From: the human T2T-CHM13v2.0 reference genome, Homo sapiens
Assembly (NCBI RefSeq): GCF_009914755.1
Contig: NC_060925.1
Length of the DNA: 64,000 bases
Reading direction: 5' to 3' (one strand)
Positions 1 to 9,259 of the stretch are shown here, one piece after another. Every line of letters starts with the position of its first letter. Within the stretch, counting starts at the first letter, position 1. The notes below the pieces were generated by a model. It searched no databases and was not told the origin of the DNA. It saw only the letters and a program-made list of their open reading frames with translations. A program made the position numbers and the translations under genes.

Positions 1-1407
1 AATGCACTTAGGTATTAAATATGCTCCCTGAAAGCCCCCCAAAATAGGCTGTGATCACATCAAAGGCCTGAGCTGACTCATTCACTCAGTTAAACTAAAA
101 CACCATAGCAAGGGTAAAAGACAGAACAAAGGTGTGATCAATGACCGAGGAACATAAAATTTATACGTTTCTCAGCTTAAAAAGAATTCGTAACCATCAA
201 TATCATGTTGACAGTTGGATCCACAAAGTCCATAGAAAAACCTGTGAACAACTCTACAATTATATCTTTGATTTTTTCTTCTCTAGTTAATTAAGATGTC
301 ACCAGAAGCCCTATAAGTAATTATAGCACATGACAAACATACAGAGAAAAAAAAATACACACAGATGTGTTAGCAGATTTTTAAAATAAATGAAACCTTG
401 GGAAATGACTGAGGCAGACAGTCTGGCTCACCCCTGGTAGTTCATTCTAGAGAAATAAATACCTGTCTGTGCCAAAGTGGAATGACGTCACTCAGAAATC
501 CACACACTTATCAAAGCAGTAACCACCCCCTTAAGAGCAAGCATCTCTCTGGCACCAGGCATGAGCGGAGAAGTTTGATCTACAGCCAGAAACTCCTCCT
601 GGCTAGCAAATTGTACTGTAGTATGCCAAATAGCAATAAGCCACTGAGAAGAAAGGGTATCCATAAAGATCTCCCCCTCCCAAACACCCGTCCCTGGGAC
701 AATGAGTCCCCTTACATGGCTCATAACAACAATGAAAAGGAGGGAAAAAAAATAAAATTCTTGATTCTGTGAAACTATAGATCTAAATGGAATGAAGTCT
801 ACACAGTCATCAGATTGGCTGCATGTGTCATTATCAGTTCTCATGTGTTATTTGGATATTTATCTTGCCTTTATTAGAAGGAAGTCTCTTTTTGTGTGGG
901 GGTGCAGGAGGAACAACCCCCAGGCCCAGTAAGGAATTCTCTTGAGGACAGGGTATATTTAGAATGTTTAATGAACACCTATCACCAAGAATAGGTGGGT
1001 CCTTAATCAGTATTGACTAACAACAGATGCCAGAGCCAAAGCAATCCTGTAAATGTTGAGGACAGAAAGACCATGATTCATTTAATGACTAGTTAATATG
1101 TTCAGCCTCCACCAATCTTGCCAAATCAGCTGCTCCAGTGTGTATCTGTGCTCACTCTCTGGGTGGCTACTGAATGACCAAATTTGTATGTCCATTGGCT
1201 TGTGTACTCTAAATTACAGCATATTATTAACCATGTTGATACTTTACTGGCAAAACTTTAAAGGGCTGAGTGGTATAAGAGAAGCCCTAGTCAATTTCCA
1301 GGTTAGTAGATCAAATTAGCGAGTTCAGGTCCTTAAGGAATCTGGATGAACAATGTGAAACTCCATCTACACTCTGTGGAAAGCGCCTTGAACTATGCTT
1401 AAGACAC

Positions 1408-1500
1408 AGAGTCTAGGCTTAGCTCTGCCACTTACTAGCCAGGTAACTTTGGGCAAGTCACAAATGCATTCTGGGTCTCAAAATCTCTTCACCTGTTTTA
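1408..1500 (+). mobile_element. MIR, 5' portion (continues at ~7561-7685)
   Basis: MIR core-like 'gctctgccacttactagccaggtaactttgggcaagtcac...cacctgt'. Confidence 0.65.
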
Positions 1501-1514
1501 AAAAGTAAATGGAA

Positions 1515-1675
1515 GCCAGGTATGGTGACACGTGCCTGTACTCCTGGCTACTCGGGAAGCTGAGGTGGGAAGATCGCTTGAGCCCAGGAGCTTGAGGCCA
1601 TAGTGCACAATGATTGTGCCTGTAAATGACCAGCCTGGGTAACATAGGACCTGTCTCTTAAAAAATAAATAAATA
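1515..1675 (+). mobile_element. Alu monomer (FAM/FRAM-like)
   Basis: Single ~150-bp diverged Alu arm 'gccaggtatggtgacacgtgcctgta...cctgtctct' followed by an A-rich tail. Confidence 0.8.
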
Positions 1676-1893
1676 GAGACGGAGGTAGAGGGAGGACACA
1701 GAGCCGCGCCGCCTGCACCAGAGACCTTCGCCTCGCCCCGCCGGTTCCTCACCCTCGGGGAGCAACATGGATAATCTCAGTGATACCTTGAAGAAGCTGA
1801 AGATAACAGCTGTTGACAAGACTGAGGATAGTTTAGAAGGATGCTTGGATTGTCTGCTTCAAGCCCTGGCTCAAAATAAATGATTCAGTGTAG
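1676..1893 (+). pseudogene. RAP1GDS1: Processed retrocopy of a short RAP1GDS1 (SmgGDS) mRNA, 5' part: GC-rich 5'UTR plus intact 38-codon ORF (1767-1883)
   Basis: ATG at 1767 (gcaacATGG) gives MDNLSDTLKKLKITAVDKTEDSLEGCLDCLLQALAQNK*, the first 37 residues matching the recalled RAP1GDS1 N-terminus. It is intronless and preceded by a CpG-rich UTR-like segment. The symbol names the parent gene. Confidence 0.92.
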
Positions 1894-2274
1894 GGGGGAG
1901 GAGCCAAGATGGCCGAATAGGAACAGCTCCGGTCTACAGCTCCAGCGTGAGCGACACAGAAGACGGGTGATTTCTGCATTTCCATCTGAGCTTTGAAGAG
2001 AGCAGTGGTTCTCCCAGCACGCAGCTGGAGATCTGAGAACGGGCAGACTGCCTCCTCAAGTGGGTCCCTGACCCCTGACCCCCGAGCAGCCTAACTGGGA
2101 GGCACCCCCCAGCAGGGGCACACTGACACCTCACACGGCAGGGTATTCCAACAGACCTGCAGCTGAGGGTCCTGTCTGTTAGAAGGAAAACTAACAAACA
2201 GAAAGGACATCCACACCGAAAACCCATCTGTACATCACCATCATCAAAGACCAAAAGTAGAGAAAACCTCAAAG

Positions 2275-3292
2275 ATGGGGAAAAAACAGAACAGAAAAAC
2301 TGGAAACTCTAAAACGCAGAGCGCCTCTCCTCCTCCAAAGGAACGCAGTTCCTCACCAGCAACGGAACAAAGCTGGATGGAGAATGATTTTGACGAGCTG
2401 AGAGAAGAAGGCTTCAGACGATCAAATTACTCTGAGCTACGGGAGCACATTCAAACCAAAGGCAAAGAAGTTGAAAACTTTGAAAAAAATTTAGAAGAAT
2501 GTATAACTAGAATAACGAATACAGAGAAGTGCTTAAAGGAGCTGATGGAGCTGAAAACCAAGGCTCGAGAACTACGTGAAGAATGCAGAAGCCTCAGGAG
2601 CCGATGCGATCAACTGGAAGAAAGGGTATCAGCAATGGAAGATGAAATGAATGAAATGAAGCGAGAAGGGAAGTTTAGAGAAAAAAAGAATAAAAAGAAA
2701 TGAGCAAAGCCTCCAATAAATATGGGACTATGTGAAAAGACCAAATCTACGTCTGATTGGTGTACCTGAAAGTGAGGCGGAGAATGGAACCAAGTTGGAA
2801 AACACTCTGCAGGATATTATCCAGGAGAACTTCCCCAATCTAGCAAGGCAGGCCAACGTTCAGATTCAGGAAATACAGAGAACGCCACAAAGACACTCCT
2901 CGAGAAGAGCAACTCCAAGACACATAATTGTCAGATTCACCAAAGTTGAAATGAAGGAAAAAATGTTAAGGGCAGCCAGAGAGAAAGGTCGGGTTACCCT
3001 CAAAGGGAAGCCCATCAGACTAACAGCAAATCTCTCGGCAGAAACCCTACAAGCCAGAAGAGAGTGGGGGCCAATATTCAACATTCTTAAAGAAAAGAAT
3101 TTTCAACCCAGAATTTCATATCCAGCCAAACTAAGCTTCATAAGTGAAGGAGAAATAAAATACTTTACAGACAAGCAAATGCTGACCGATTTTGTCACCA
3201 CCAGGCCTGCCCTAAAAGAGCTCCTGAAGGAAGTGCTAAACGTGGAAAGGAACAACCAGTACCAGCCACTGCAAAAACATGCCCAATTGTAA
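2275..3292 (+). pseudogene. L1 ORF1p, disrupted
   Basis: MGKKQNRKTGNSK... and ...KRPNLRLIGVPESE... lie in different frames. There is a +1 A in the A-run at ~2681-2687 and CAA TAA (for CAA GAA) at ~2714-2719. Confidence 0.95.
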
Positions 3293-3355
3293 ACACCATC
3301 GATGCTAGGAAGAAACTGCATCAACTAATGAACAAAATAGCCAGCTAACATCATA

Positions 3356-7184
<3,829 letters not shown>

Positions 7185-7404
7185 ACAATGAGATCACATG
7201 GACACAGGAAGGGGAATATCACACTCTGGGGACTGTGGTGGGGTGGGGGGAGGGGGGAGGGATAGCATTGGGAGATATACCTAATGCTAGATGACGAGTT
7301 AGTGGGTGCAGCGCACCAGCATGGCACATGTATACATATGTAACTAACCTGCACAATGTGCACATGTACCCTAAAACTTAAAGTATTAAAAAAAAAAAAA
7401 AAGC

Positions 7405-7538
7405 ATGATTCAGTGTAGTTGTAGTGCTAGATATATTATATGGAATTATCAGCAGTTTACCAGTTGGTTCTTTATTAGTACTCCTGATGTCTTAAACAAA
7501 AATGAATAACTGTTTATCTTTTAAAAAAATAAATAAAT
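7405..7538 (+). pseudogene. RAP1GDS1: 3' part of the RAP1GDS1 retrocopy (alternative 3' end plus A-rich tail), separated from the 5' part by the L1
   Basis: The sequence resumes at the duplicated ATGATTCAGTGTAG (7405-7418), has a variant polyA signal AATGAA at 7501 and an A-rich tail from 7523. A 16-bp repeat AAAAAATAAATAAATA at 1660-1675 and 7539-7554 bounds the whole retrocopy as a candidate TSD (low complexity). Confidence 0.75.
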
Positions 7539-7560
7539 AAAAAATAAATAAATAAATAAA

Positions 7561-7685
7561 TGGGATAAGCAGGGACAGCAGACCTGCCCTGCCTAACACA
7601 CATGACTTTTGTGAAGATCCAATCAAACAAGGTGATGCCCTTAAACAAACTTTATAAACATGAAAGTGTTCTACAACTATATATC
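7561..7685 (+). mobile_element. MIR, 3' portion
   Basis: 'tgggataag...acctgccctgcctaacacacatgacttttgtgaagatccaa...tgaaagtgttctaca' resembles the MIR segment following the core. Confidence 0.6.
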
Positions 7686-7864
7686 AGTATCAACATCTTT
7701 TCTTATAATTATGACAACTATCATTACTCAACAGCCCACACAATGAATTCATACCCACGAAACAAAGTGACTAGAATCATGTCTGAAAAGACAAATACAT
7801 CTCAAAATTCCTTTTATAATAAACTTGTTTCATAAATTCCCTACTTCATTAGTATACTAAATAG

Positions 7865-8173
<309 letters not shown>

Positions 8174-8178
8174 CATAC

Positions 8179-8337
8179 TTTTTTTTTGCAGAGATGGGGT
8201 CTTGCTCTGTTGCCCAGGTTGGAGTACACGGGCATGACCATGGTTCACTGTAGCCTCAAACTCCTGGGCTCAAGCAATCCTCCCGCCTCAGCCTCCCAAA
8301 GTGCCAGGCTCACAATTATGAGCCACCTCACCTGGCC
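8179..8337 (-). mobile_element. Alu monomer (FAM/FRAM-like)
   Basis: Single diverged antisense Alu arm directly after the previous Alu. Confidence 0.75.
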
Positions 8338-9259
8338 AGGAATACATTTTATTGCTATTAATTTATCATCTGATTCTCTGGAAATTCCCAAACTCAGTGA
8401 ATCTTCTGTGCCTAATGTAGCTGAGACTTTAAACGAAAGAATCATGTGCAAAGAGAAAAGGCCAGAGTGTACAAAAAGAGAATCATGGAATTTCAGAGCT
8501 AGAAGGGACTTTCAAGATGGTCTAGAGTCTAGACCAAGCCTGTCATTGTCTGAGTGAGGAAACTGAGGCTCAGGGAGCCTGAGATCACACAGACAGTGGT
8601 GGAGCAGGGCAAGAATCCAGGTCTCCTGACTAGTAACCGTTTTCTTATTTCATTGTGGTGGTTATTACATTTCATTCAAAAGCCCTTAGCATCTCAAAGG
8701 GCTGGTGCTGAAAGAGTTAATGGACAATGCTCAGAGCCCCAGAGCGCAGAGCTATTCTAAGACAACACATAACAGGAATACCAAGGGTCCATGAACCCAG
8801 AGGGAGCAAAACTGCTGCTGCCTAACGGCGCCTGAAAGCATGTTGACACACTGCATGTGGTTACACATGAAAGGCAAGTGAATAGGAAAAGCAGTTTTGA
8901 ATCCCACCCCATTCTAATTTTGGACTGGCTCTGGGCACCTACTGGAGGACTGGGCCACACCCCAGTCACTCTGTAAAATGACCCTTCAGTTCCTTCACTC
9001 TCTCTATTCTGTGGCCTCAGTTAACCCCTTCTCTGCCTTCTTAAGGGCCATAAGAGACATCAGTAAAAGAGGACTATCAAGGAATTATCAAGATCCAGAA
9101 GTAAACCTAAGTGATTGGGGTCATCCTGTAACGAGAAGATTCCCAGTCTGGAGTCAGATGATCCCCACTAGTATCTACCATCCCCAAGCATGTGATCTGA
9201 AGCCTTCAACAGCCAGGTTCATAAATGCAAAAGAGAGCAGTTTCTGTAAGTGTGAGGCT

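What the first reader, a model, noticed from the sequence alone, without database searches (positions are those of the whole stretch)
1894..2274. The L1 is a spliced integrant (SpIRE 97/622): most of the 5'UTR was removed as an intron
Seen: 97 nt after the L1 start, ...TTTCCATCTGAG (1990) is joined directly to CTTTGAAGAGAGCAGTGG (1991), and the 5'UTR totals only ~380 bp instead of ~900. Known: in L1HS/L1PA2 the first sequence is followed by the donor GTACCGGG and the second is preceded by the acceptor ...CTGACAG. This is the described 97/622 intra-5'UTR splice that yields promoter-crippled spliced integrated retrotransposed elements. Inference: this copy was reverse-transcribed from a spliced RNA. 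It lacks most of the CpG island, the antisense promoter and ORF0, but keeps the YY1 site (CAAGATGGCC).
Basis: partly seen in the sequence, partly recalled or inferred. Interest (0 to 1): 0.7.

Follow-up and report, generated by a model that had tools for sequence, protein, structure and literature searches.

The report
Host-promoter-rescued spliced LINE-1 daughter copy
This is an already catalogued human LINE-1 whose promoter was spliced out in an ancestral copy on chromosome 4, and which likely jumped here on an RNA started from the host gene RAP1GDS1, whose first two exons and some intron it still carries.

Summary
The junction is real: 22 of 24 other L1s tested carry a 504-536-nt GT...AG segment at 1990/1991 that this copy lacks. 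This element is SpIRE(97/622)-6 of Larson 2018. Positions 1676-1878 are spliced RAP1GDS1 exons 1-2, 1879-1893 is a 15-nt cryptic exon, and 7419-7522 is a 3' transduction of RAP1GDS1 intron 2. The true target-site duplication is 1660-1675/7539-7554. The 97/622 splice was therefore inherited from a source SpIRE in RAP1GDS1 intron 2 (chr4), which likely retrotransposed on a host-promoter transcript; the insertion was then copied by SRGAP2 duplication. Law and Burns (2025/2026) describe this family (four insertions). Three details were not in the text I read. The 3' tag marks all three independent daughters, and the source lacks AATAAA. A 5'-truncated daughter lies on chr2 (T2T 233,045,853). This copy has a conversion patch of at least 184 nt matching an L1 583 kb away. 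Verdict: already known, small additions; interest 0.3.

The parts
1515..1675 (+). Alu-derived repeat whose A-rich tail is the insertion site
   Evidence: blastn hits to Alus in other loci over 1515-1669; sequence
1660..1675 (+). True 5' target-site duplication (14-16 nt, edge ambiguous), preceded by a TT/AAAA endonuclease site
   Evidence: Law and Burns Table S5 gives 14 nt for the chr1:121 Mb paralog
1676..1770 (+). RAP1GDS1 exon 1 (5'UTR part and start codon at 1767)
   Evidence: 97% to chr4:101,576,430-528, followed there by a GT donor; gene name from Table S5
1771..1878 (+). RAP1GDS1 exon 2, joined to exon 1 at the splice sites
   Evidence: 100% to chr4:101,608,361-469, flanked there by AG and GT
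1879..1893 (+). 15-nt cryptic exon start from RAP1GDS1 intron 2; equals the 5' copy of the source L1's own target-site duplication
   Evidence: preceded on chr4 by a pyrimidine tract and AG
1767..1883 (+). 38-codon upstream ORF (RAP1GDS1 N-terminus) ending in the cryptic exon; strong start context
1894..2274 (+). Spliced L1PA2 5'UTR, 381 nt; 97/622 junction at 1990/1991; YY1-type motif 1905-1914
   Evidence: subfamily label from Larson S1 Table
2275..3292 (+). ORF1, broken: 1-nt insertion near 2681 and a stop at codon 148, both private to this copy
3258..3441 (+). Likely ectopic gene-conversion patch (could extend to 3512) matching an L1 at chr1:144,673,801-144,674,301 (-)
   Evidence: 17 of 17 informative sites inside, 0 of 89 outside
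3356..7184 (+). ORF2, broken by frameshifts near 3441, 6541 and 6684, private to this copy within the family
7185..7402 (+). L1 3'UTR, ATTAAA in place of AATAAA (7385-7390), first poly(A) 7388-7402
7405..7418 (+). 3' copy of the source L1's target-site duplication (inherited, not this insertion's)
7419..7522 (+). 3' transduction, 104 nt of RAP1GDS1 intron 2 downstream of the source L1
   Evidence: 99% to chr4:101,640,896-641,011
7523..7554 (+). Second A-rich tail (7523-7538) and 3' target-site duplication (7539-7554)

Best explanation
This is a daughter copy of a 97/622-spliced L1PA2 that sits in RAP1GDS1 intron 2 on chromosome 4, likely retrotransposed from a RAP1GDS1-promoter transcript and then likely copied here by the SRGAP2 segmental duplication. 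Step 1 (inferred from structure): a full-length L1 RNA lost 524 nt of 5'UTR by splicing and integrated in sense in RAP1GDS1 intron 2, with the first two bases (AG) of its target duplication forming a usable acceptor. Step 2 (junctions shown; promoter use inferred, three supporting reads reported by Law and Burns): RAP1GDS1 transcripts spliced exon 1 to exon 2 to that acceptor, making the L1 a terminal exon. Step 3 (shown at DNA level; cause inferred): transcription ran past the weak poly(A) signal and ended about 100-190 nt into the intron. Step 4 (inferred): the RNA's own ORF1p and ORF2p, translated past a 38-codon upstream ORF, inserted it at three or more sites (chr1, chr10, chr2). Step 5 (copies shown; route inferred): the chr1 insertion was duplicated with SRGAP2, and this copy later decayed and took a conversion patch from another L1. 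It is now a promoter-poor, coding-dead fossil, antisense in an SRGAP2B intron.
For: Segments map in order to chr4 exon 1, exon 2, the 15 nt before the source L1, the L1 (98.0% over 1879-7522) and its 3' flank, with GT/AG at each source junction. Three distinct outer TSDs on chr1, chr10 and chr2. Two chr1 paralogs and the chr2 copy keep, after the poly(A), the longer form of the inner repeat matching the chr4 5' side (16-17 nt), while chr4 itself now keeps 12 nt. All 13 indels and all 6 in-frame stops among 5 copies are private to one copy, so the source was likely intact when it spawned. AATAAA follows the L1 end in 13 of 17 control L1s (3 of 20 stretches held no L1 end) and in 0 of 6 family members. 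A search with the RAP1GDS1 last exon and 3'UTR found no young retrocopy: only the gene, one 82% 192-nt hit and two hits under 40 nt. That favours cis preference. Larson Fig 4A: SpIRE97/622 retrotransposes at about 70% with an added CMV promoter and about 7% without. Law and Burns describe the same model.
Against: No expression or retrotransposition was tested here. The strong 38-codon upstream ORF and three further upstream ATGs should lower ORF1 translation, so help in trans is possible. The chr2 daughter is 5'-truncated (about 140 nt of L1), so its promoter cannot be read. Which chr1 copy is SRGAP2A or C is inferred from position. The genome search scores only best candidates, so a blank is weak.
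Confidence: 0.93

Rival explanations
1. Independent first-generation SpIRE that landed in a pre-existing RAP1GDS1-derived fragment, with the 14-nt inner repeat as its own TSD (the Larson 2018 annotation, and the reader's implicit model).
For: A perfect 14-nt direct repeat flanks the L1; listed with TSD 14 and transduction 'No'.
Against: The same inner repeat flanks the L1 on chr4, chr10 and chr1, and follows the chr2 copy. It would need several independent spliced insertions at the same base. The reconstructed empty site gave no hit without the L1 in the genome.
Confidence: 0.01
2. Same chimeric RNA, but mobilised in trans as a processed pseudogene by another active L1, because the RAP1GDS1 upstream ORF blocks ORF1 translation.
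For: 38-codon upstream ORF in strong context ending 10 nt before the L1 start.
Against: No ORF break is shared between source and daughters. Three insertions come from a minor isoform and no young one from the main mRNA.
Confidence: 0.12
3. The 524-nt gap is a DNA-level deletion after insertion.
For: A 2-nt AG is shared at both ends.
Against: Ends coincide with GT...AG in 22 of 22 gap-bearing controls; the same junction is at 35 or more unrelated loci and in source and all paralogs.
Confidence: 0.01

Closest known systems
SpIRE97/622 (Larson et al. 2018, PMC5860796), entry SpIRE(97/622)-6, SRGAP2B
   Same: Same element: the filled-site sequence shares this copy's private 1-nt deletion near 1941; same junction and subfamily.
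   Different: The table scores the chr1 (-6), chr4 (-35) and chr10 (-79) entries as separate SpIREs with no transduction; they are one splice event and two daughters.
RAP1GDS1/L1PA2 chimera (Law and Burns, bioRxiv 10.1101/2025.02.02.635956; Cell Genomics 2026, PMC13174262)
   Same: Same source, 5' exons, cryptic acceptor 15 nt upstream, chr10 copy and three chr1 duplicates.
   Different: The text I read does not mention the 3' transduction, the chr2 daughter, the poly(A) signal, the upstream ORF or the conversion patch. Their downstream TSDs lie 137 and 124 nt past the L1 end, so they span the tag. Figures are not held.
L1 3' transduction families (general mechanism, established knowledge)
   Same: Read-through of a weak poly(A) signal tags daughters with source flank.
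   Different: Here it is combined with a spliced 5' transduction from a host promoter.

Membership tests
SpIRE97/622 | 524-nt 5'UTR loss with ends at the G98U99 donor and A620G621 acceptor | tested here: met
   (22 of 22 gap-bearing controls GT...AG, 15 at 524 nt); definition read
SpIRE97/622 | TPRT hallmarks: TSD, poly(A), endonuclease site | tested here: met
   outer TSD 1660-1675/7539-7554, TT/AAAA site, second A tail; the TSD in the published list is the inherited inner one
SpIRE97/622 | L1PA1-PA6 subfamily | tested here: inconclusive
   PA2 label taken from S1 Table; no subfamily library here; 98.3% to an unspliced full-length L1 over 859 nt
SpIRE97/622 | Made directly from an RNA that underwent the 97/622 splice (first-generation) | tested here: not met
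   junction already in the chr4 source DNA; this copy is second-generation
SpIRE97/622 | Reduced 5'UTR promoter activity | not testable with these tools
   about 7-fold versus 267-fold over empty vector for the engineered L1.3 version; not measured for this copy
RAP1GDS1/L1PA2 chimera | Spliced RAP1GDS1 exons 1-2 plus 15-nt intronic segment before the L1 | tested here: met
RAP1GDS1/L1PA2 chimera | One TSD around the whole chimera, shared by the chr1 duplicates | tested here: met
RAP1GDS1/L1PA2 chimera | Chimeric RNA intermediate exists | not testable with these tools
   three long reads reported by Law and Burns; no RNA data here

The most novel reading that the evidence does not exclude
The 'dead-end' SpIRE in RAP1GDS1 was a productive hominin source element. 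It was switched on by a host promoter, tagged every daughter with a 3' transduction because it lacks AATAAA, and mobilised itself in cis through a strong 38-codon host upstream ORF. It left at least three independent germline insertions, one (chr2) uncatalogued, and one that landed in SRGAP2 shortly before the human-specific duplication and so may be human-specific. The SRGAP2B copy also records strand exchange with an inverted L1 583 kb away in 1q21.
Probability: 0.4. Interest if true: 0.45.

Novelty: already known. Interest (0 to 1): 0.3.

Why it matters
It is a natural case of the exception Larson et al. allowed in principle: a promoterless L1 kept jumping on a host promoter. It corrects SpIRE counts (three table entries are one splice event) and shows how an inherited inner TSD can be mistaken for an insertion's own. 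The 3' tag raises the source's known output from two to three independent events and gives a handle for finding more in apes and pangenomes. The main story is published, so the gain is incremental.

Tried and rejected
Post-insertion deletion: rejected. The 14-nt inner repeat as this copy's TSD: rejected. chr10 or chr2 as offspring of the chr1 copy: rejected; chr2's tag is longer (190 nt past the old TSD versus 104), and 7 L1 sites plus one tag site unite the chr1 trio against chr4 and chr10. More daughters: a family-diagnostic site at 2776 (4 of 5 family copies, 0 of 31 controls) gave 6 genome hits: 4 family, one unspliced full-length L1 with AATAAA on chr1:191.85 Mb, and one 78%-identical old L1 on chr9. 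Neither is a daughter; shorter untagged daughters would be missed. A search with the L1 3' end returned nothing because common words are skipped. Dating: the three chr1 copies differ 1.1-1.5% inside the L1 but 0.41-0.53% over the next 10 kb, partly from conversion. In the clean part (3700-7386) the stem is 3 non-CpG changes against tips of 9-11 and 20 for chr4, so I can say only 'before, and probably not long before, the duplication'. The flank upstream of the window was not compared. The human-specific element list was uninformative (one small file held). A recalled early report of a 215-bp 5' transduction could not be traced. The bacterial promoter scan does not apply. Dennis 2012 was not held; SRGAP2 dates are second-hand.

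Full report
Observation. The L1 begins at 1894, the junction is at 1990/1991 and ORF1 starts at 2275, giving a 381-nt 5'UTR. I fetched 25 of the 40 best genome hits to the first 97 nt. Of the 24 that are not this locus, 22 carry an extra 504-536-nt segment exactly at the junction (15 at 524 nt), and all 22 begin GT and end AG; one is another 97/622 element and one uses a different downstream site. In one control the missing segment holds 28 CpG against 10 kept, and a whole 71-codon antisense ORF (ORF0 by recall). A junction-spanning query hits at least 35 unrelated loci in one piece. It is also catalogued: Larson 2018 lists SpIRE(97/622)-6, PA2, SRGAP2B, opposite strand, and its filled-site sequence shares this copy's private 1-nt deletion near 1941.

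The insertion is larger than the L1. Upstream, 1676-1770 and 1771-1878 match two chr4 segments 32 kb apart (97% and 100%), each ending at a GT donor there and joined here at the splice sites. Law and Burns Table S5 assigns them to RAP1GDS1 exons 1-2. The next 15 nt (1879-1893) match the bases just before a chr4 L1 at 101,635,380, preceded there by a pyrimidine tract and AG. That chr4 L1 has the same 97/622 junction and is 98.0% identical over 1879-7522. After the first poly(A), the 14-nt repeat (7405-7418) and 104 further bases match the chr4 flank, followed by a second A tail. The TSD of this insertion is 1660-1675/7539-7554, in an Alu tail at a TT/AAAA site. The inner repeat is the source's own TSD: two chr1 paralogs and the chr2 copy keep 16-17 nt of it after the poly(A), matching the chr4 5' side from the acceptor AG or G onward, whereas chr4 now keeps 12.

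Family. The 5' exon query gives 6 hits of 6 candidates: three chr1 copies, one chr10 copy and the two exons. The 3' tag query gives 6 of 6: the same four copies, the source, and chr2:233,046,010. The chr2 element (from 233,045,853) is about 140 nt of L1 3' end, poly(A), the old TSD, 190 nt of intron, an A tail and its own 15-16-nt TSD. Its tag outruns the chr1 (104 nt) and chr10 (about 98 nt) tags, so it came from chr4 directly. The three chr1 copies share flanks and TSD and 7 L1 sites against chr4 and chr10: one insertion, duplicated. By position they are SRGAP2A, B and C (inferred). SRGAP2D has lost exons 2-3, which may explain its absence; the first duplication is dated about 3.4 million years ago (second-hand passage).

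Mechanism. The 97/622 splice happened once, in the RNA that made the chr4 element. Larson showed that such an element retrotransposes at about 7% of wild type alone and about 70% with an added promoter, and allowed that a cellular promoter could rescue one. Here RAP1GDS1 likely supplied it; Law and Burns report three reads of the chimeric splice. Read-through is explained by the poly(A) signal: 0 of 6 family members have AATAAA at the L1 end against 13 of 17 controls (3 of 20 stretches held no L1 end). The six are one lineage, so this is one event, not six. For mobilisation in cis: all 13 indels and 6 in-frame stops among five copies are private, and the RAP1GDS1 3' end has no young retrocopy. 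Against it: the chimeric leader opens with a 38-codon ORF in strong context and has three more ATGs before ORF1, so ORF1 would need leaky scanning or reinitiation (inference). This copy is now broken in both ORFs.

Later history. Paralog divergence is higher in the L1 than in the next 10 kb (71 of 5428 versus 39 of 9875 non-CpG variable sites). Part of this is a patch: at 3258-3441 this copy matches an L1 at chr1:144,673,801-144,674,301, inverted and 583 kb away, at 17 of 17 informative sites, including the 1-nt deletion that frameshifts ORF2, and at 0 of 89 outside. Only 40 of 3853 candidates were scored, so the donor is the best found, not proven unique. An excess remains outside the patch and is unexplained, so I give no absolute date. 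Stem 3 against tips 9-11 suggests insertion not long before the duplication. Ape status is untested.

Literature seen. Larson 2018 (PMC5860796): abstract, Results part 1 of 4, section 14, Discussion part 1 of 2, passages, all of S1 Table, S1 Data passages. Law and Burns preprint: abstract, passages, section 25; its supplements were not seen. Cell Genomics version (PMC13174262): passages and two Table S5 rows; figures are not held, and Fig 6A may draw the 3' segment. PMC4761178: passages. PMC6191304: supplement search only, blank. Searches for RAP1GDS1 with L1PA2 or LINE-1, and SRGAP2 with L1PA2 and transduction, returned only Law and Burns as relevant, judged from listings. In their text 'chromosome 2', 'uORF' and 'gene conversion' occur 0 times, and the 'transduction' passages shown are 5' ones or a reference title. 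Older genome-wide transduction catalogues were not read, so the chr2 copy may be listed elsewhere.

Verdict. Both the SpIRE and the RAP1GDS1 chimera are published. The additions are the 3' tag, a probable third independent daughter, sequence evidence for an intact source, and a conversion patch. Already known; interest 0.3.

Noticed in passing
L054:7354-7712 (G000:C2:233,045,853-233,046,211): 5'-truncated daughter of the chr4 SpIRE with a 190-nt 3' transduction and its own 15-16-nt TSD; not among the four insertions in the Law and Burns text.
   Followed up: yes
window 3258-3441; donor candidate L093 (G000:C1:144,673,801-144,674,301, -): Likely ectopic gene conversion from an L1 about 6% diverged, inverted, 583 kb away; it carries the ORF2 frameshift near 3441.
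   Followed up: yes
window 3480-3612 and 3186-3242: Further private substitutions next to the patch (5 and 3) that do not match that donor; possibly a second tract or error-prone repair.
   Followed up: no
L052 (chr1:121.3 Mb paralog), equivalent to window 1908-3145: 19 of its 32 private substitutions fall in this first 1.25 kb, including the YY1-type motif and loss of the family-specific base at 2776; possibly another conversion.
   Followed up: partly
L053 (chr10:45.36 Mb): The chr10 daughter sits inside an older L1 of opposite orientation (85-90% identical) and has an uninterrupted 1275-codon ORF2 but a stop in ORF1.
   Followed up: partly
L095-L096 (G000:C1:191,847,500-191,853,900): Unspliced full-length L1 sharing the family-specific base at 2776, 98.7% to the chr4 source over 858 nt; a close relative of the source's parent lineage.
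   Followed up: partly
L044 (C4:67.39 Mb) and L048 (C3:62.90 Mb): Two other spliced L1s among the controls: one 97/622, one joining the same donor to a site further downstream (position fits the 97/976 entry in CADPS).
   Followed up: no
L085 (G000:C5:91,574,951-91,575,142): 82% match over 192 nt to the RAP1GDS1 3'UTR; possibly an old retrocopy fragment.
   Followed up: no
window 600-1660 and 7560-8760: The 1-kb flanks of the insertion are about twice as divergent between paralogs (about 1.0%) as the next 10 kb (about 0.5%); unexplained.
   Followed up: partly
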